This document shows positions 2,072-48,166 of a DNA stretch of 64,000 nucleotides, piece by piece. The notes beneath the pieces are model-generated. The model was not told the DNA's origin, did not search any database, and was given only the letters and a program-made list of their open reading frames with translations. Origin of the DNA: a virus (Duplodnaviria; Caudoviricetes). The DNA lies in IMG/VR virus record IMGVR_UViG_3300020048_000009, positions 96,001 to 160,000 of that record. One strand, written 5' to 3'. The translations under genes and the position numbers were made by a program. Positions within the stretch are counted from its first letter, which is position 1. Every line of letters begins with the position of its first letter.

Positions 2072-2770
2072 TTAATATGTATGAAAATTCTAGAATATTA
2101 GAACCTAATGAAGAAGTAAAGAAAGGTGATTTAATTCTATTAGTAGGTAAGAGTTGGATTATTGCAATAGATACACCAGTTAAATATTTAGCTAAAGATT
2201 TTATAGAAGTAAGAAGAAGGAAAGAAGAGGTTTAAAGATTATGGTAGTAGTTGATATTGAATGTTTATTACATGTGGTGACATTATCGGAATTGTCATTA
2301 GTTTGTCCTATTGTTATGGAAAAATTTAGGAGTAATGATAAGTATTTCCATATCGATCAATATGTCAGAGAGAATGGTGCAACTGTATGTATAGATTTAA
2401 ATGAATGGTGGAATGTTTTACCTGGGAAAGAGAAGGTAGATATTATAAGTACTTTCCATAGAGAATATAGACAGAGGCAAAAGGATTGTGAATATTCTGC
2501 GGATCAATTGTTTGAATATTGTTATGATATTAAAGACTAGGAGAATATAGATATGTTATCAGAAGAACAATTAGAAGCTTTAAAGGATTTAAGAGATGCA
2601 GGTATCATGGATCACGGTACGATTTCTGATTGTGGTGAAGCGTGCAACTGTCCTGCTTCTAATTTTATGTCTAAAGAAAGATGTGAATGTGGAGCAGATG
2701 AACATAATGAGCATCTTAATAGGGTTTATGATAATGTTCTGAAAATACTTACTGCTAAAGAAGTCTAGAT

Positions 2771-3073
2771 ATGAATAAGTTTAGTGTAGGTGATAAAGTT
2801 AAGGTTGTTCAATATGCAGGACGTGATTCTGAGAATCACCGCTATTTTAAAATTGGTAACGTCGGGATTGTTAGACAGGTAAATCTTCGTGGTGTCGGTG
2901 GATATCAGGATATGTTATTTGTTGATTTTAATGATCCTTCTAATACATATATATTCGGAAATGGTTGTTGGTATGTTTATAATGAAAATAGTTTAAGGTT
3001 GGATACTATTGAAATTGATATATCAACTTTAGATGAAGATGCTTTAATCCCTCAGGAATTATATGAAAAATAA
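2771..3073 (+). CDS. SH3/KOW-like hypothetical, DISTLDEDALIP family
   Basis: FSVGDKVKVV N-terminus, RYF.IG, W.VY.E.SL and C-terminal DISTLDEDALIP shared with 6991 and 7307. Confidence 0.8.
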   Translation: MNKFSVGDKVKVVQYAGRDSENHRYFKIGNVGIVRQVNLRGVGGYQDMLFVDFNDPSNTYIFGNGCWYVYNENSLRLDTIEIDISTLDEDALIPQELYEK

Positions 3074-35863: not shown

Positions 35864-35952
35864 ATTTTTTATTTATTAAAGATATAAGAATTTTTGTTCA
35901 AATAAATATTACAAAAAATTAATAAATAAAATAAACAAAATAGACGAAAACT

Positions 35953-41809: not shown

Positions 41810-42355
41810 ATGAAAAATGATAAGAAAACAATAGTTGTAAATCTCTACGGTGGACCGGGTTCTGGTAAGTCTACCCTTATGGCGAGTATATTTTCAGAAT
41901 TAAAGCTTAATGGAATTAATTGTGAGATGGCACCTGAATTTGCTAAAGAAAAGGTATGGGAAGGTTCGTTAGATATTTTAGCAAATCAACTTTATATTTT
42001 TGGAAAACAGCATCACACTATTTTTAGACTTTTGGGTAAAGTGGATGTAATTATAACGGATTCACCTATTATTCTATCTTTATACTACGGAAAGAATTGT
42101 AGTAATACATTTAAGAAATTAGTATTAGAGGAATATGCTAAATTAAATAATATTAATTTTTTTGTAGACAGAATTAAGAAGTATAATCCAAAGGGAAGAC
42201 TTCAAACAGAGTCTGAAGCAAAACAAATTGATAAAGAACTTTTATCAATTTTAAGTAAAAACAATATACATGCCGTTCATGTAGAAGGCGGACGAAAAAA
42301 CATTAAATGGATATCTAAAAGTATAATAGATATTATTAAAAAGGAAATAATATGA
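41810..42355 (+). CDS. NadR/Ttd14-type AAA (AAA_28-like) P-loop kinase
   Basis: NLYGGPGSGKST, PEFAKE, ITDSP; 4-nt overlap with thg1. Confidence 0.78.
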   Translation: MKNDKKTIVVNLYGGPGSGKSTLMASIFSELKLNGINCEMAPEFAKEKVWEGSLDILANQLYIFGKQHHTIFRLLGKVDVIITDSPIILSLYYGKNCSNTFKKLVLEEYAKLNNINFFVDRIKKYNPKGRLQTESEAKQIDKELLSILSKNNIHAVHVEGGRKNIKWISKSIIDIIKKEII

Positions 42356-43134
42356 ACAAGGATTCACTAGGCGATCGCATGAAAAATTTTGAGTCAGTAA
42401 CCGCAACAAAACTAATTAGTAGAATGCCCGTAATTTTACGGCTTGATGGTAAAGCATTCCACACATTTACCAAGGGTTTTGATAAACCTTTTGATACTCT
42501 ACTATCAGATACGATGATTGAAACTACACTTGAATTAGTTTCAACTATTCAAAACTGTCAAGTTGGATATGTTCAATCAGATGAAATTTCATTACTTCTT
42601 GTAGATGATAAGCACCTTAATACTTCTTCTTGGTTTGATAATAAGATTCAGAAGCAAGTATCGGTTGCGGCATCGATGTGTACTTTAACTTTTAATACTA
42701 TTTTTCTATCAAAAGTTATATCCCTATCAAAAGTAGAAGATATGACAGAAGAAATGTTTAAAAAAGTTGATATGTATAATGGTAAAATTTGTTCTGCGCT
42801 TTTTGATTGTAGAGCTTTTAATATTCCAAAAGAAGATGTATGTAACTATTTTATCTGGAGACAGCAAGATGCAACTAGAAATTCTATTCAATCTCTAGCA
42901 CAAGCTAATTTTAGTCCTAAACAACTACATGGCCTAAGTTGCAATAAGCTTCAGGATAAACTTTTCGCAGAAAAGCAAATTAATTGGAATGATATTTCTA
43001 CAACAAATAAAAGAGGAACATGTGCAGTAAGAAATTTTAAAAATGGACCTGCTTTTATTATTGATCGTGAAATTCCTATCTTTTCTCAAGATAGAACGTA
43101 TATCGAAAAGCTTGTTAATATTAGAGAGGATTAA
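42352..43134 (+). CDS. thg1: tRNA(His) guanylyltransferase/Thg1-like protein
   Basis: LGDRMK.FE, RLDGKAFHTFT, YVQSDEISL, FD.RAFN.P, YF.WRQ.DA.RNS. Confidence 0.93.
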   Translation: MNKDSLGDRMKNFESVTATKLISRMPVILRLDGKAFHTFTKGFDKPFDTLLSDTMIETTLELVSTIQNCQVGYVQSDEISLLLVDDKHLNTSSWFDNKIQKQVSVAASMCTLTFNTIFLSKVISLSKVEDMTEEMFKKVDMYNGKICSALFDCRAFNIPKEDVCNYFIWRQQDATRNSIQSLAQANFSPKQLHGLSCNKLQDKLFAEKQINWNDISTTNKRGTCAVRNFKNGPAFIIDREIPIFSQDRTYIEKLVNIRED

Positions 43135-43540
43135 TTATGTCTGATGGTGATTATGCTTTTCCATTTGACCCAGAATCAGAAAAACGTCGAATGAAACAAT
43201 TAGAAATTAATCAAAAATTTTTATTAGATGCAATTTTTGAAATTCATGATAATCTGTGTCCTAAACAATACGGAACATGGCAAGATAAAGTTAAACAATC
43301 AGTTGAAGCTTCTAAAAAATTAAAAAAGGATTAAAATGGACGCAAAATTAGAAATAACATATTTGGATGATAATACTGGACATGAAAGAACTATTACATT
43401 AAATACTATAACATGTTCAGAAGAATTTTATAATGATGTTAATGCGGTTTTAAAAGATAAACCTGTTACATGTAGATTAGCATTGCGATAATTTTATAAT
43501 TATTAATAAATAAAATAGAATATTCATAAGGAGAAAATAA

Positions 43541-43585
43541 ATGAATAACGATAAAGTTAAATGTTAGGTGCTTAAACCACCATAA
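43541..43585 (+). CDS. Leader mini-ORF with internal amber codon and Pro-Pro-stop end
   Basis: AAGGAG SD 43528-43533; ATG AAT AAC GAT AAA GTT AAA TGT TAG GTG CTT AAA CCA CCA TAA. Confidence 0.7.
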
Positions 43586-43646
43586 TCCTATTAGTGTTGA
43601 AAAATGACTGATTAATGTAAAAAACAAACAAACTAATAAGGATTAT
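43582..43646 (+). promoter_or_regulatory. Anti-SD/SD helix (putative translational attenuator)
   Basis: ATAATCCTATTAGT (43582-43595) is complementary to ACTAATAAGGATTAT (43632-43646; one bulge), which holds the AAGGA SD of ORF 43651. Confidence 0.65.
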
Positions 43647-43650
43647 AAAA

Positions 43651-43953
43651 ATGAGAAAAATAGACGAATTAAAGTTAAAGAATAAAGAAACAAGTAAACA
43701 ACTTAGAGAAAGAAATCTCAAGTTAAAAGAGAACCAGAAGCAAGGTAAATGTTGTAGTAATGAAATGTGTTCATTGTATTATGCTAGAAAAGAATATAGA
43801 CATTATCACATTGCCTATTGTGAGTTAAGAGGTAGAACTAGGGATCAGATTGAAAAACCTAGACGTGGTAATGAAGTAAACGAACAGCTTATTCAAAATA
43901 TTAAAAATGAATATGCATGGGAAATTCTCGATACTGGAGCAAACAATGAATAA
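43651..43953 (+). CDS. Hypothetical basic protein in the amber module
   Basis: Charged helical N-terminus; RHYHIAYCELRGRT..QIE.P; overlaps the Pth2-like start by 8 nt. Confidence 0.8.
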   Translation: MRKIDELKLKNKETSKQLRERNLKLKENQKQGKCCSNEMCSLYYARKEYRHYHIAYCELRGRTRDQIEKPRRGNEVNEQLIQNIKNEYAWEILDTGANNE

Positions 43954-44242
43954 ATTATATGTTTTAGTGAGAAAAGATTTATCTACATCTTATCAAGCGG
44001 TTCAAGCTGGTCATGCTGTGGCGGAATGGTTACTTCAAAACCATTAGGGTTCCGAATGGAAAAATAATACATTAATATATTTAGGTGTAAAAGATTTAGA
44101 TGATCTTAATCACTGGATGGAAAAACTTAAATATAAAAATATAGAATTTTCAGCATTTAAAGAACCTGATATTGGAAATGAAATAACAGCAATCGCATGT
44201 TTAAATGATGGTAAATTATTTTCCAGTCTTAGATTATTATAA
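43946..44242 (+). CDS. pth2: Pth2-like peptidyl-tRNA hydrolase with in-frame TAG at codon 34 (44045-44047)
   Basis: GGAG SD; KLYVLVRKDL...QAVQAGHAVAEW before the TAG and W.N.TLIYL...F.EPDIGNE.TAIA after it, same frame, ending TAA 44240-44242; missed by ORF track. Confidence 0.82.
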
Positions 44243-44245
44243 AAC

Positions 44246-44322
44246 GGCACTATAGCTCAGTGGTTAGAGCGGGAATCTCTAAAATTCTGTCCGCATGGGT
44301 TCGAATCCCATTAGAGCCGCCA
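44246..44322 (+). tRNA. Amber-suppressor tRNA (anticodon CUA)
   Basis: Acceptor GGCACTA/TAGAGCC (A:A at pair 4), D-arm GCTC/GAGC, anticodon arm GGAAT-CT CTA AA-ATTCT, T-arm ATGGG-TTCGAAT-CCCAT, G discriminator, encoded CCA. Confidence 0.9.
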
Positions 44323-44366
44323 AATTTATATAAGTTCCACTCCAGTGGAAAAAGTTAAACAAAAAG

Positions 44367-44400
44367 AAAAAGTTAAGGTATATTTTACCTTAACTTTTTT
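44367..44400 (+). terminator. Hairpin terminator after the tRNA, overlapping the next promoter (44378-44407)
   Basis: AAAAAGTTAAGGTA-TATTT-TACCTTAACTTTTTT. Confidence 0.75.
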
Positions 44401-44453
44401 ATATTATATATCTATCTCAAATGTAATTAACGTTTAAAATAAAGGAAAAATAA

Positions 44454-44987
44454 ATGAAGACTGGACTTATTATTGGTGGTGTTATTGTTCTTGGTATTGT
44501 GATGATTGGAAGTATGTTCATTAGTTGCAATAACAAGGATGTTATGCTTAGGACGACAATGGCTGCTCAGCAACTAGATAATACGAGCGTGTTTGATAAT
44601 ATGGGCAAGAAAATCAGTCAGGTTGCACAGGTTTCAGTTAAGCAGATGGAAATGCTAAAGGAGATCTTCCAAGCTCATGCGCAAGCACGTTCAACTGGTG
44701 GTGACAATCAAGTGATGACATGGATTAAGGAAAGTATTCCAAATATCGATACTGCAACATTTAATAATCTTCAGAATATTATTGTTTCAAGTAGAGATTC
44801 TTGGACAATGAGTCAACGAAAACTTATTGATCTAAAACGTGAACATGACCAGTTACTTCAACTTTTCCCTTCAAATATTATCTTAGCAATGTTAGGCAAG
44901 AAACCGTTTGAAATTAAGATTATTACTTCAACAAAAACCGAAAAGGCTTTTGAAACAGGTAAAGATGATGATGTAAAATTGTTTTAA
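44454..44987 (+). CDS. LemA-like membrane-anchored coiled-coil protein
   Basis: N-terminal TM, S.NN....LR, helical core, FPSNI...LG near C-terminus. Confidence 0.5.
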   Translation: MKTGLIIGGVIVLGIVMIGSMFISCNNKDVMLRTTMAAQQLDNTSVFDNMGKKISQVAQVSVKQMEMLKEIFQAHAQARSTGGDNQVMTWIKESIPNIDTATFNNLQNIIVSSRDSWTMSQRKLIDLKREHDQLLQLFPSNIILAMLGKKPFEIKIITSTKTEKAFETGKDDDVKLF

Positions 44988-47348: not shown

Positions 47349-47669
47349 ATGATTCAAGATCTCAATAAACAAGAGTTTTTAAATGTTATTCTAAAAGATG
47401 ATTTATGCTTAATAGAAATTTATGGTTCTACTTGTGGACCATGTAAAATGCAAGCAAAAATCTTAGAAAATATTCTATATAATAAGCCAGAACTTGATAA
47501 TAAGATTAAATTTTATAAGTTCTGTATCGATGATATGGATGAAATTGCCCAAAAATTTGAAATTAAAATTCTTCCAACCATTATGGTTTTTAAAAATAAA
47601 CAAATCCTTAAAACCTTTATGGGAATGTCTCCTATGAATATTTTAACGGCCTTTTTGGATGAAATTTAA
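47349..47669 (+). CDS. Thioredoxin-like protein
   Basis: TCGPCK active site, FEIKILPTIMVFKN. Confidence 0.85.
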   Translation: MIQDLNKQEFLNVILKDDLCLIEIYGSTCGPCKMQAKILENILYNKPELDNKIKFYKFCIDDMDEIAQKFEIKILPTIMVFKNKQILKTFMGMSPMNILTAFLDEI

Positions 47670-48166
47670 TAAATAAAATAAAAAGATTAAGGGATAATAT
47701 TATGGGAATTTTAGATACAGCAGGCGATTCTATTATAAAAAACGCATACAAACGTATTTTTGATAAAAAATCAGCCGCAGACCAACATGAAGCTTTTAAA
47801 GAAAATCTTATAAAAGTTTGTAATGAAATGGCAGCTTCTAGAAAAATTAAATTACTTAAAATTGAAGATAATTTATCTAAGAGCGTCGATACAAAAACTA
47901 AATTGATGTTCCAATTCGCAGAAGGCAGTGATAAGTATTTAGAAATTACTGCAATGTCTGGTGGAATTAAGTATATGACAAAGATTCTACTTATTGCACA
48001 TGGCGATAGAATTGAGAAAGTTGTTAAGCTAGTTCAGGAGCATTTAAATGAAATGTTTTCACCTTTTGGCACATTTAAGAATAAAGGTTGGACAGATATT
48101 GTAGAAAATGATGAAGAGCCTGAAAAGAAAGCAAAAAAATAATTTAAAGCTCTATATATAAAGTAA

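What the first reader, a model, noticed from the sequence alone, without database searches (positions are those of the whole stretch)
43495..44400. Self-contained amber read-through switch: leader, attenuator, hypothetical gene, amber-split Pth2, CUA tRNA
One apparent transcription unit runs from candidate promoters (TATAAT 43495, AATAAATA 43505) to a terminator (44367-44400). It has two in-frame TAGs at regulatory positions (leader codon 9, Pth2 codon 34) and ends with the tRNA that decodes TAG, 3 nt after the Pth2 stop. TAG is a normal stop in many other genes here, so this is not plain genetic code 15. Model (inference): the unit senses UAG read-through, from suppressor accumulation or from RF1 loss/inhibition. 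It then makes a peptidyl-tRNA hydrolase exactly when termination is impaired, acting as a positive-feedback or timing switch. I do not recognise this architecture as described, but could not search the literature.
Basis: partly seen in the sequence, partly recalled or inferred. Interest (0 to 1): 0.93.

Follow-up and report, generated by a model that had tools for sequence, protein, structure and literature searches.

The report
Amber-gated leader switch with suppressor tRNA
A large lake-water phage that otherwise uses the normal genetic code carries a small conserved gene unit in which a stop-codon-reading tRNA sits behind two genes, and those genes appear to be translated only when that tRNA reads through UAG stops placed in a short leader, which would be a natural "is suppression working?" switch that I did not find described in the literature.

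Summary
The unit contains:
- a leader mini-ORF with TAG at codon 9, ending Lys-Pro-Pro-TAA
- a 100-aa gene ("h100")
- a Pth2-fold gene with TAG at codon 34
- a tRNA(CUA) 3 nt after its stop, then a terminator

The genome is standard-code: TAG ends 30 of 294 ORFs, and no other gene needs read-through.

The cassette recurs in 40 non-identical IMG/VR phage loci with unrelated flanks. An SD-preceded leader of the form "M-x-TAG...Pro-Pro" lies upstream of h100 in 36 of 40. The background was 0 hits in 420 kb of the phage's own genome.
- All 54 leader TAGs are followed by a purine.
- K-P-P is always followed directly by a stop (17/17); the other leaders carry RAPP-like R-[GSAD]-P-P.
- The RNA at or just after Pro-Pro pairs with the h100 Shine-Dalgarno in a locus-specific way: -15.0 kcal/mol matched versus -9.0 mismatched, permutation p<5e-5.

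Best reading (about 0.6): read-through of UAG puts a slow or stalled ribosome on the hairpin foot, frees the SD, and turns on h100 and the Pth2-like gene.

The TAG inside Pth2 is specific to this phage lineage, not conserved. What the two proteins do, and whether the feedback is positive or negative, is unknown. Nothing here is experimental.

This scan had already noted the same kind of cassette on other DNA. I found no published description.

The parts
43504..43517 (+). Promoter-like motif TAATAAATAAAATA, 24 nt before the leader ATG
   Evidence: Six matches (up to 1 mismatch) in the window against 1.38 expected; 0 of 100 shuffles reach 6. Seven near-copies in the genome, each shortly before a start codon, most with a recognisable SD. 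Function not shown.
43528..43533 (+). Shine-Dalgarno AAGGAG of the leader, 7 nt before the ATG
   Evidence: Read from the sequence. 17 of 38 relatives have AAGGAG, and spacing is mostly 5-9 nt.
43541..43585 (+). Leader mini-ORF M-N-N-D-K-V-K-C-TAG-V-L-K-P-P-TAA. TAG is at 43565-67, Pro-Pro at 43577-82, TAA at 43583-85.
   Evidence: The same design is found in 36 of 40 relatives against 0 hits in 420 kb of the phage's own genome. A purine follows all 54 leader TAGs, and K-P-P is always followed by a stop. All four Pro codons are used.
43582..43598 (+). 5' arm of the SD-sequestering helix. It starts at the last base of the second Pro codon and contains the leader stop codon.
   Evidence: MFE and centroid fold of 43537-43660: -19 kcal/mol, z = -3.73, 0 of 200 shuffles as good.
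43627..43646 (+). 3' arm of the helix, holding the h100 Shine-Dalgarno AAGGA (43638-42)
   Evidence: The duplex of -14.7 kcal/mol is the third strongest among 171 SD-bearing genes of this genome (mean -6.4, sd 2.8). The pairing is locus-specific in 38 relatives.
43651..43953 (+). h100: a 100-aa conserved helical protein of unknown function. Its core motif is E-[YF]-R-H-x-H-I-A-Y-x-x-x-R-G...Q-I-E.
   Evidence: 45 IMG/VR loci and 521 metagenomic relatives, none named and none with a Pfam domain. AF2 model pLDDT 92, helical hairpin. No Pfam, PHROG, NCBIfam or PADLOC hit.
43946..44242 (+). Pth2-fold gene of 98 codons with an in-frame TAG at 44045-47 (codon 34). Its start overlaps the end of h100 by 8 nt.
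   Evidence: Pfam PF01981 scores 25.2 bits (cut-off 23). The profile hits Pth2 structures, 2zv3 at E = 2.5e-7. AF2 pLDDT 96, and the top 15 Foldseek PDB hits are all Pth2-fold structures (annotated Pth2 enzymes plus structural-genomics proteins of that fold), TM 0.62-0.82. The TAG lies in the variable loop.
44246..44322 (+). tRNA with anticodon CUA (reads UAG), with CCA encoded. It has one A-A mismatch in the acceptor stem (pair 4:69).
   Evidence: ARAGORN; Rfam RF00005 61.2 bits. It is the only tRNA outside the 24-tRNA cluster 47 kb upstream. Amino-acid identity could not be inferred.
44366..44400 (+). Intrinsic-terminator-like hairpin (15-bp stem, T-run) closing the unit

Best explanation
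This is a conserved, mobile phage cassette. Its order is leader, h100, Pth2-like gene, tRNA(CUA).

Proposed mechanism:
- A strongly initiated leader carries one to three UAG codons in a context that favours suppression.
- If UAG is read as stop, the ribosome leaves at least 18 nt before a hairpin that hides the Shine-Dalgarno of h100, and the two proteins are not made.
- If the cassette's own tRNA(CUA) reads UAG, the ribosome runs on to Lys-Pro-Pro-stop (in other lineages to Arg-Gly/Ser/Ala/Asp-Pro-Pro), where it is slow or arrested.
- That site is the foot of the hairpin, so the paused ribosome keeps the SD open. h100 is then translated, and the overlapping Pth2-like gene is translated by coupling.
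- In this phage a second UAG inside the Pth2-like gene adds a further dependence on suppression.

What is shown: the anatomy, its conservation, the locus-specific pairing, and the Pth2 fold.

What is inferred: that the tRNA is charged and suppresses, that Pro-Pro pauses the ribosome, that the switch turns ON with suppression, and anything about what h100 and the Pth2-like protein then do.
For: Conservation of the cassette:
- 45 loci (40 non-identical) encode h100. Of the 45, 42 have the Pth2-like gene next to it and 39 have a tRNA(CUA) within 1.5 kb. The flanking genes differ between loci.

Conservation of the leader:
- 36 of 40 loci have an SD + 'M x(0-12) TAG ... PP' uORF within 330 nt upstream of h100. 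Background: 0 hits in 420 kb of the phage's own genome and 5 in 258 kb of flanks.
- The other 4 loci are variants: TAG at codon 3 of h100 itself; a leader fused through a TAG to the upstream ORF; a leader ending in a single Pro; and one missed only because of the SD filter.
- 54 of 54 leader TAGs are followed by G or A. The first TAG is at codon 3 in 22 of 38 leaders. K-P-P is followed directly by a stop in 17 of 17; 17 other leaders carry R-[GSAD]-P-P or R-P-P-P.
- All four Pro codons are used at both positions. At least 3 codons always separate the last TAG from Pro-Pro.

SD pairing:
- Matched leader 3' region against its own SD: -15.0 kcal/mol. Mismatched pairs: -9.0. Permutation p < 5e-5.
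- Composition-preserving shuffles give a mean z of -3.7, and 36 of 38 loci have at most 5% of shuffles as good. The reversed control gives -9.2, Wilcoxon p = 1.4e-7.
- Window fold z = -3.73. The h100 duplex is the third strongest of 171 genes in this genome.

Independent sample:
- A contig from a separate lake-water metagenome keeps both TAGs. All 4 coding substitutions are synonymous, and both indels fall in the hairpin loop.

Standard code:
-.

Published support:
- RGPP and RAPP give robust, EF-P-refractory arrest with varied and short N-terminal contexts, and RSPP and RDPP are partly permissive (PMC12992588).
- C-terminal Pro-Pro slows termination (Hayes et al. 2002, seen in the reference list of PMC6412442).
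Against: - There is no experimental datum of any kind. Transcription, tRNA processing, charging, suppression and stalling are all unshown.
- The window's own motif is L-K-P-P-stop, not a tested RAPP-type arrest sequence. A 14-residue peptide may pause only briefly.
- The window tRNA has an A-A mismatch in the acceptor stem.
- The tRNA is encoded in cis, so what varies as the 'input' is unclear.
- TAG ends about 10% of the phage's genes, and these stops do not avoid a following purine. A strong suppressor should therefore carry a cost.
- Simple translational coupling, in which any ribosome passing the hairpin foot opens it, would explain most of the data without true arrest.
- The loci are related by descent, so the counts overstate the number of independent events.
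- A later check of a sister finding in this scan put the bold reading at only 20/100, for the same reason that nothing is experimental.
Confidence: 0.6

Rival explanations
1. Homeostat (negative feedback). The gating is the same, but the products h100 and Pth2-like then lower suppression. They could do so by deacylating or hydrolysing the loaded suppressor tRNA. Alternatively, ribosomes that terminate 0-17 nt before the tRNA could interfere with its folding and processing. Either way the cassette would hold UAG read-through at a set, tolerable level.
For: - The Pth2 fold acts on the ester bond at tRNA 3' ends.
- The tRNA starts within 17 nt of the Pth2 stop in 22 of 32 loci.
- TAG ends 10% of phage genes in suppressible contexts, so unlimited suppression should be costly.
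- h100 occurs directly with the tRNA even where Pth2 is absent (L032, L039).
Against: There is no evidence on the substrate of either protein. The sign of the loop cannot be read from sequence. This model shares all the untested steps of the main model.
Confidence: 0.25
2. Damage control or positive timing switch. The two proteins are needed only once stop-codon read-through is under way, for example to recycle peptidyl-tRNA from ribosomes that ran past TAG stops. Alternatively, their translation protects the transcript and so raises tRNA output.
For: - Pth2 fold.
- PTH2 in jumbo phages has been proposed to serve ribosome rescue (PMC7824862).
- One distant relative's locus also carries a tmRNA gene (L017).
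Against: - The protein scores 15.8 bits against the Pth2 equivalog cut-off of 126.
- From memory, it lacks the GKGK lysine of Pth2 enzymes.
- Hosts already have the essential Pth1.
- Nothing shows positive feedback.
Confidence: 0.2
3. Tolerated passengers. The cassette is expressed constitutively, and TAG codons simply drift into sequences next to a suppressor tRNA because they are harmless there. On this view the hairpin and leader are generic coupling elements.
For: - The TAG inside Pth2 is not position-conserved and lies in a loop that tolerates any residue.
- Borges et al. propose that suppressor tRNAs 'detoxify' in-frame stops, which then accumulate (10.1101/2021.08.26.457843).
Against: - Leader TAGs are present in essentially every lineage.
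- They sit at a preferred position (codon 3).
- A purine always follows them (54/54).
- They always lie at least 3 codons before Pro-Pro.
- No other gene in 212 kb has acquired an in-frame TAG.

Drift would not give this pattern.
Confidence: 0.1
4. Minigene effect. The strongly initiated 'M-x-UAG' leader acts like the lambda bar minigenes (from my own knowledge). It would shed dipeptidyl-tRNA or tie up RF1, and the Pth2-like enzyme would be the antidote.
For: The first TAG is at codon 3 in 22 of 38 leaders, behind strong SDs. A Pth-type fold is encoded next door.
Against: This does not explain the conserved Pro-Pro, the hairpin onto the SD, or the spacing rule. The window's own leader has its TAG at codon 9.
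Confidence: 0.05
5. A broken gene, an assembly error, or a phage that reads TAG as an amino acid throughout (genetic code 15).
For: Lak megaphages, which are TAG-recoded, carry the closest GenBank homologues of the Pth2-like gene.
Against: - Both TAGs are kept in an independent metagenome, with only synonymous changes around them.
- TAG ends 30 of 294 ORFs.
- Reading TAG as sense gains no more coding than reading TGA as sense.
- No release-factor gene is present in the record.
Confidence: 0.03

Closest known systems
RAPP-type and related ribosome-arrest leaders (ApdA, ApdP, ApcA, SecM, MifM)
   Same: A short upstream ORF ends in R-[AG]-P-P (here also R-S/D-P-P or K-P-P-stop). The stall site lies on the 5' arm of a hairpin that hides the Shine-Dalgarno of the next gene (PMC7897499, PMC10951233, PMC12992588).
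   Different: Those leaders are 50-170 aa secretory or membrane proteins. Their arrest is the default state and is relieved by the pulling force of the Sec/YidC machinery. Here the leader is 8-25 aa with no targeting signal, and the ribosome reaches the stall site only if UAG is suppressed. The window's own motif is LKPP-stop, not RxPP.
prfB (RF2) autoregulation through an in-frame UGA (from my own knowledge)
   Same: A stop codon placed early in the message measures how well that stop is decoded. The outcome sets expression of a translation-termination-related product.
   Different: prfB uses a +1 frameshift and senses a release factor. This cassette uses read-through by a tRNA encoded in the same unit, plus a hairpin over an SD. 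No frameshift site is present.
TnaC, and C-terminal Pro-Pro termination pausing
   Same: Peptidyl-prolyl-tRNA facing a stop codon is released slowly. The paused ribosome controls the downstream genes (references 79 and 112 in PMC6412442).
   Different: TnaC senses free tryptophan and acts through Rho-dependent transcription termination. Here no small-molecule input is evident, and the target is an SD hairpin.
Engineered 'Uaa switch': a TAG inserted in a leader peptide so that downstream expression needs an amber suppressor (reviewed in PMC6412442, section 6)
   Same: The logic is identical: translation of the leader beyond an inserted UAG is required for expression of the target gene.
   Different: That system is man-made, built on the tna/trp leaders, and acts on transcription. 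This one is natural, carries its own tRNA, and acts on translation initiation.
Stop-codon-recoded (code 15) phages with suppressor tRNAs (crAss-like, Lak; Borges et al., 10.1101/2021.08.26.457843)
   Same: A phage-encoded tRNA(CUA), low GC content, rare TAG stops, and in-frame TAG proposed as a means of regulation.
   Different: Recoded phages have in-frame TAG in 26-71% of their genes. Here the only TAG-dependent reading frames in 212 kb lie inside the tRNA's own cassette.
'Orphan' suppressor tRNAs of standard-code jumbo phages (for example XacN1, PMC5852040)
   Same: A standard-code jumbo phage with tRNA(CUA). XacN1 also has a Pth2-like domain gene.
   Different: In XacN1 the authors found no target for the suppressor, and its Pth2-like domain is fused to a larger protein without a TAG. 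Here the targets sit next to the tRNA.

Membership tests
Pth2 peptidyl-tRNA hydrolase family (PF01981) | Sequence match above the Pfam gathering score | tested here: met
   25.2 bits against a cut-off of 23, with TAG read as a residue. A profile of 43 relatives hits the Pth2 structure 2zv3 at E = 2.5e-7.
Pth2 peptidyl-tRNA hydrolase family (PF01981) | Pth2 alpha/beta fold | tested here: met
   AF2 model pLDDT 96. The top 15 Foldseek PDB hits are all Pth2-fold structures (annotated Pth2 enzymes plus structural-genomics proteins of that fold), TM 0.62-0.82.
Pth2 peptidyl-tRNA hydrolase family (PF01981) | Equivalog-level similarity to archaeal Pth2 (NCBIfam NF003314) | tested here: not met
   15.8 bits against a cut-off of 126. 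The protein should be called Pth2-like, not Pth2.
Pth2 peptidyl-tRNA hydrolase family (PF01981) | Catalytic residues and hydrolase activity | tested here: inconclusive
   Q20, H23, E73 and T81 are invariant, and D75 is nearly so. They align with the Pth2 AQxxHA and DAGxT regions. The GKGK segment is deleted. Which residues are catalytic I know only from memory, and activity cannot be tested here.
RAPP-like ribosome arrest peptides | R-[A/G]-P-P (or the permissive R-S/D-P-P) core near the C-terminus of a small upstream ORF | tested here: not met
   The window's leader has L-K-P-P-stop. 16 of 38 relatives have RGPP, RSPP, RAPP or RDPP, and one has RPPP. As a family the leaders overlap this class, but this copy does not carry the defining Arg.
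RAPP-like ribosome arrest peptides | Stall site placed so that the ribosome opens a structure hiding the downstream SD | tested here: met
RAPP-like ribosome arrest peptides | Arrest demonstrated, and relieved by a pulling force on an N-terminal targeting signal | not testable with these tools
   The leaders are 8-25 aa with no signal or transmembrane segment. If arrest occurs, its release must work in some other way.
C-terminal Pro-Pro termination pausing | Two Pro codons directly before the stop codon | tested here: met
   CCA CCA TAA at 43577-85. 17 of 17 K-P-P leaders end this way.
Amber suppressor tRNA | Canonical cloverleaf with anticodon CUA | tested here: met
   ARAGORN; Rfam 61.2 bits against a gathering score of 29. 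There is one A-A mismatch in the acceptor stem.
Amber suppressor tRNA | Aminoacylated and active in decoding UAG | not testable with these tools
   The discriminator base varies (A, G or U) among relatives, and there is no clear paralogue among the phage's 24 other tRNAs.
Code-15 (TAG-recoded) phage | In-frame TAG in a large share of genes, and low coding density under code 11 | tested here: not met
   Coding coverage is 87% under code 11. Reading TAG as sense gains no more than reading TGA as sense. No other homology-supported TAG-interrupted gene was found.
Leader-peptide transcription attenuator (trp/his type) | Terminator hairpin with a U-run between the leader and the gene | tested here: not met
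   The only terminator-like sites in 43100-44600 are at 44366-44400. The leader hairpin's 3' arm is the SD itself, and AUAAAAAUG follows it.
prfB-type autoregulation | Programmed +1 frameshift at the in-frame stop | tested here: not met
   The leader and the Pth2 gene continue in the zero frame across TAG. It works like prfB but is not a member of that class.

The most novel reading that the evidence does not exclude
The cassette is a self-contained controller of stop-codon read-through. The tRNA(CUA) supplies suppression, and the UAG/Pro-Pro leader measures it. h100 (a basic helical hairpin that is always paired with the tRNA) and the Pth2-fold enzyme then act back on the loaded suppressor tRNA, on RF1, or on the paused ribosomes. 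This would let a standard-code phage run a low, regulated level of amber suppression. Such a state could be the regulated intermediate from which fully TAG-recoded phages evolve.
Probability: 0.25. Interest if true: 0.92.

Novelty: new variant of a known kind. Interest (0 to 1): 0.82.

Why it matters
Several things would follow if the model holds.

- **A target for orphan suppressors.** Suppressor tRNAs in phages that use the standard code have had no known target; the XacN1 authors looked for one and found none. Here the targets sit next to the tRNA.
- **A new input for a known switch.** This would be the first natural gene switch I am aware of whose input is nonsense suppression itself. It is built from parts already known from other systems: an arrest-type Pro-Pro leader and a hairpin over a Shine-Dalgarno. 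It mirrors a switch that synthetic biologists designed by hand.
- **A lead on two protein families.** It ties a widespread unnamed family (h100, more than 500 metagenomic members) and the phage Pth2-like family to the control of stop-codon decoding.
- **A testable step in code change.** It offers a concrete intermediate on the route to genetic-code change in phages.
- **Easy to test.** All predictions can be checked with simple reporters in laboratory E. coli strains.

Tried and rejected
- **h100 with Pth2-like protein as a complex.** The intact pair from relative L029 gave 'no answer' (score 0.00). This counts neither for nor against binding. The only hints of joint action are the natural in-frame fusion in L070 and the overlapping genes.
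- **Function of h100.** No hit in Pfam, PHROGs, NCBIfam or PADLOC. Foldseek against PDB found nothing below E = 0.8; only generic helical hairpins matched, such as the tRNA-binding arm of seryl-tRNA synthetase. The ESM Atlas gave nothing usable.
- **Amino-acid identity of the tRNA.** There is no close paralogue among the phage's tRNAs; the best is Ile(UAU) at 73%. The discriminator base varies among relatives. Identity is left open.
- **Other TAG-dependent genes in the genome.**
  - A hexamer-score screen gave 7 candidates.
  - Five look like antisense or low-complexity frames.
  - Window 2241-2774 is two genes, with an SD and ATG after the TAG.
  - Genome 68780-69373 is rejected, because the only relative (139 aa) ends where the TAG is.
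- **Release factor in the phage.** None was found; the record is 84% complete.
- **Cultured phage carrying the h100 cassette.** None in GenBank phages at E <= 0.01.
  - In Aeromonas phage CC2 the Pth2-like 'hydrolase' is not next to a tRNA.
  - In Yersinia phage fHe-Yen9-04 no Pth2-like frame precedes the tRNA-Sup-CTA.
- **tRNA(CUA) elsewhere in five leader-bearing records that lack it nearby.** The records are 14-69% complete, and the one pattern hit is not a tRNA. Inconclusive.
- **Sigma-70 promoter scan.** At chance level.
- **Rfam.** Nothing except the tRNA in 43300-44500.
- **Column-wise covariation.** Not attempted, because the helix slides relative to both anchors between lineages. Matched-versus-mismatched and shuffle tests were used instead.
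- **RNA evidence.** One 178-nt contig from a sediment metatranscriptome lies on 44033-44210 at about 95% identity. It may be a relative, or DNA carried over into the RNA library. It is not evidence of expression.
Full report
**What is in the window**

The stretch 43495-44400 reads as one compact unit on the + strand.
- An AAGGAG Shine-Dalgarno (SD) at 43528-33 precedes a 14-codon mini-ORF (43541-43585). The ORF spells M-N-N-D-K-V-K-C-TAG-V-L-K-P-P-TAA.
- After 65 nt comes a 100-codon gene, here called h100 (43651-43953).
- A 98-codon gene overlaps the end of h100 by 8 nt (43946-44242). It has an in-frame TAG at codon 34 (44045-47).
- Three bases after that gene's TAA a tRNA gene begins (44246-44322). 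Its anticodon is CUA (ARAGORN; Rfam tRNA 61.2 bits).
- A 15-bp hairpin with a T-run at 44366-44400 closes the unit.

Sigma-70-like promoter matches, including TATAAT at 43495, are at chance level. The motif TAATAAATAAAATA at 43504-17, however, recurs just upstream of other genes of this phage. It is a plausible phage promoter.

**Where it comes from and which code it uses**

The window is part of a 211,678-bp IMG/VR virus record that is 84% complete and has 30% GC. Near-identical DNA occurs in aquatic and lake-water metagenomes.

The genome uses the standard code.
- ORFs of at least 80 aa cover 87% of the genome.
- Reading TAG as sense adds no more coding than reading TGA as sense.
- TAG ends 30 of 294 ORFs.

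The phage has 25 tRNA genes. Twenty-four form a cluster about 47 kb upstream, and the CUA tRNA stands alone behind the 98-codon gene. A screen for other TAG-interrupted genes found none that survives inspection. No release-factor gene is present. The only reading frames in the record that need UAG read-through therefore lie in the tRNA's own cassette.

**The two proteins**

The 98-codon gene encodes a Pth2-fold protein.
- Pfam PF01981 scores 25.2 bits against a cut-off of 23.
- A family profile hits solved Pth2 structures.
- The AlphaFold model has pLDDT 96.
- Its best 15 PDB matches are all Pth2-fold structures, with TM-scores of 0.62-0.82.
- It is far below the NCBIfam equivalog score (15.8 against 126), and it lacks the GKGK segment. 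I therefore call it Pth2-like and treat hydrolase activity as an inference.

The TAG falls in the most variable, indel-rich loop of the family, where any residue should be tolerated.

h100 has no match in Pfam, PHROGs, NCBIfam or PADLOC. It has more than 500 unnamed metagenomic relatives. It is modelled with confidence (pLDDT 92) as a long basic helical hairpin plus a third helix, and no informative fold match was found.

**The cassette is conserved and mobile**

Of 19 IMG/VR loci found with the Pth2-like protein, 14 have a tRNA(CUA) within 5 kb. In the closest relatives it lies 0-17 nt after the stop.

Searching with h100 gave 45 loci, 40 of them non-identical.
- 42 of the 45 have the Pth2-like gene directly downstream, usually overlapping h100.
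- 39 of the 45 have a tRNA(CUA) within 1.5 kb.

The flanking genes of the window (a Thg1-like tRNA-His guanylyltransferase upstream, a LemA-like virion protein downstream) are not shared. The block therefore moves as a module.

Three variants are informative.
- Two loci have h100 followed directly by the tRNA, with no Pth2-like gene.
- One locus has h100 and the Pth2-like protein fused in frame (L070).
- A more distant clade lacks h100, and there the Pth2-like gene itself begins M-x(1-4)-TAG (7 of 7).

**The leader is the best-conserved regulatory feature**

An unbiased pattern was used: an SD, a start codon, up to 12 codons, a TAG, then up to 18 codons to Pro-Pro, with no TAA or TGA in between.
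- It finds a leader within 330 nt upstream of h100 in 36 of 40 loci.
- It finds none in 420 kb of this phage's own genome (both strands) and 5 in 258 kb of other flanks.

The four exceptions are variations on the theme.
- One has TAG at codon 3 of h100 itself.
- One has a leader joined through a TAG to the upstream gene.
- One has a leader ending in a single Pro.
- One was missed only because of the SD filter.

Other properties of the leaders:
- Each has one or two TAGs before the last Pro-Pro.
- The first TAG is at codon 3 in 22 of 38.
- All 54 TAGs are followed by G or A. From my own knowledge (Bossi 1983), that context favours suppression over termination.
- At least three codons always separate the last TAG from Pro-Pro.
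- All four Pro codons occur at both positions, which points to selection on the peptide and not only on the RNA.

Two classes appear. In 17 leaders, including the window's, the motif is x-K-P-P and a TAA or TGA follows directly (17 of 17). In 17 others it is R-G/S/A/D-P-P (or R-P-P-P) with the stop 0-17 codons later. RGPP and RAPP are the strongest known short arrest cores. They resist EF-P and tolerate short and varied N-terminal contexts, and RSPP and RDPP are partly active (PMC12992588). Pro-Pro before a stop is known to slow termination (Hayes et al. 2002, cited in PMC6412442).

**The leader ends on a hairpin that hides the h100 ribosome-binding site**

In the window, 43582-43598 pairs with 43627-43646. 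The first arm starts at the last base of the second Pro codon and includes the UAA. The second arm includes the SD AAGGA. The fold of 43537-43660 is -19 kcal/mol with z = -3.73. Among 171 SD-bearing genes of this genome, the upstream-to-SD duplex of h100 is the third strongest.

Across 38 loci the same arrangement appears in the minimum-free-energy folds. The pairing is specific to each locus.
- Matched leader-end and SD duplexes average -15.0 kcal/mol, against -9.0 for mismatched pairs (permutation p < 5e-5).
- Composition-preserving shuffles give a mean z of -3.7, and 36 of 38 loci have at most 5% of shuffles as good.
- A reversed-sequence control gives -9.2 kcal/mol (Wilcoxon p = 1.4e-7).

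The distance from Pro-Pro to the h100 start is tightly kept at 46-79 nt, with one outlier. No U-run follows the hairpin, so it acts on translation and not as a terminator.

**Independent sample**

A 12-kb contig from a different lake-water study covers 43300-44264 with six substitutions and two single-base indels.
- Both TAGs are retained.
- All four substitutions inside h100 and the Pth2-like gene, including two downstream of its TAG, are third-position and synonymous by my reading of the codons.
- Both indels fall in the loop of the leader hairpin.

This argues against an assembly error or a decaying gene. The numbers are small.

**How it most likely works**

Shown: the anatomy and its conservation.

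Inferred mechanism:
- With no effective suppression, ribosomes end at UAG. They never come within reach of the hairpin, and h100 and the Pth2-like gene stay silent.
- Once the cassette's tRNA is made, processed and charged, ribosomes read through to Pro-Pro.
- There they dwell on the foot of the hairpin and free the SD.
- h100 is translated, and the Pth2-like gene follows by coupling.
- In this phage the extra TAG at codon 34 makes the Pth2-like protein depend on suppression twice.

I put this gating model at about 0.6. Simple coupling without true arrest is a mild variant of it.

What the proteins then do is open. The options are limiting the suppressor (a homeostat), coping with the consequences of read-through, or positive feedback.

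**Cautions**

- Nothing is experimental.
- The window's K-P-P-stop is not a tested arrest motif.
- The tRNA has an A-A mismatch in its acceptor stem, and its amino acid is unknown.
- TAG stops of ordinary phage genes do not avoid a following purine, so strong suppression should be costly.
- The loci share ancestry, so the counts are not independent events.

**Comparison with what is known**

The switch works like arrest-peptide leaders that unmask an SD (SecM, MifM, ApdA, ApdP) and like the in-frame UGA sensor of prfB. It is the natural counterpart of the engineered 'TAG in a leader peptide' switch (PMC6412442). It is not a member of any of these.
- There is no targeting signal or pulling force.
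- There is no frameshift.
- There is no Rho-dependent or terminator step.
- In this copy there is no Arg in the arrest core.

It is not a code-15 phage. Jumbo-phage PTH2 genes have been noted before (PMC7824862) and so have orphan suppressor tRNAs (PMC5852040). Neither paper links them to each other or to UAG-bearing leaders. Five further full-text searches found no description of such a link.

Earlier notes of this scan, which are AI notes on other DNA, describe the same kind of cassette. One first-reader note on this same genome describes the Pro-Pro-stop hairpin. I reached the reading before consulting them and tested the claims that I reuse.

**Verdict**

I rate it a new variant of a known kind of leader switch, of high interest.

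Noticed in passing
window 42352-43134 and 41810-42355: A Thg1-like tRNA-His guanylyltransferase gene (Pfam PF04446, E = 4e-29; phrog_4717) follows a P-loop/thymidylate-kinase-like gene, just upstream of the cassette. Neither is conserved next to the cassette in relatives.
   Followed up: partly
genome 83.4-93.1 kb (about 3-13 kb before the window start): A cluster of 24 tRNA genes. It includes unusual anticodons: Phe(AAA), Ser(ACU), Ile(UAU). Trp and Tyr are absent. The CUA tRNA is the only tRNA outside this cluster.
   Followed up: no
window 43504-43517, 35920-35933, 47667-47680 and others: The motif TAATAAATAAAATA recurs 10-45 nt upstream of start codons. It resembles the T4 late promoter TATAAATA (from memory) and may be a phage promoter class.
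   Followed up: partly
L070:1366-1923: In one relative, h100 and the Pth2-like protein are a single in-frame 185-aa fusion. This hints that the two act together.
   Followed up: partly
L032 and L039 (h100 followed directly by tRNA-CUA): Two relatives lack the Pth2-like gene and keep the leader, h100 and the tRNA. There the h100 reading frame runs into the tRNA gene. The minimal conserved pair may therefore be h100 plus the tRNA.
   Followed up: no
L049:1501-1668: In one relative there is no separate leader. Instead the h100 frame itself begins M-R-TAG. No tRNA(CUA) or Pth2-like gene lies within 1.5 kb.
   Followed up: no
L004:844-916 and L005:733-805 (Prevotella Lak megaphages): ARAGORN calls a tRNA with anticodon UUA (reads UAA) about 600-700 nt upstream of the Lak Pth2-like gene. 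This is odd for phages reported as TAG-recoded.
   Followed up: no
L017:1709-2068: A tmRNA gene lies about 3 kb from the amber-gated Pth2-like gene and the tRNA(CUA) of a distant relative.
   Followed up: no
window 2241-2540 and 2553-2768: Two adjacent small genes in the same frame both end in TAG. The second has its own SD and ATG, so I read them as separate genes that a suppressor would extend or join.
   Followed up: partly
window 44335-44350: A small perfect hairpin (7-bp arms, CC loop) lies between the tRNA 3' end and the terminator. Its role is unknown, and no Rfam family, including HDV-like ribozymes, matched it.
   Followed up: partly
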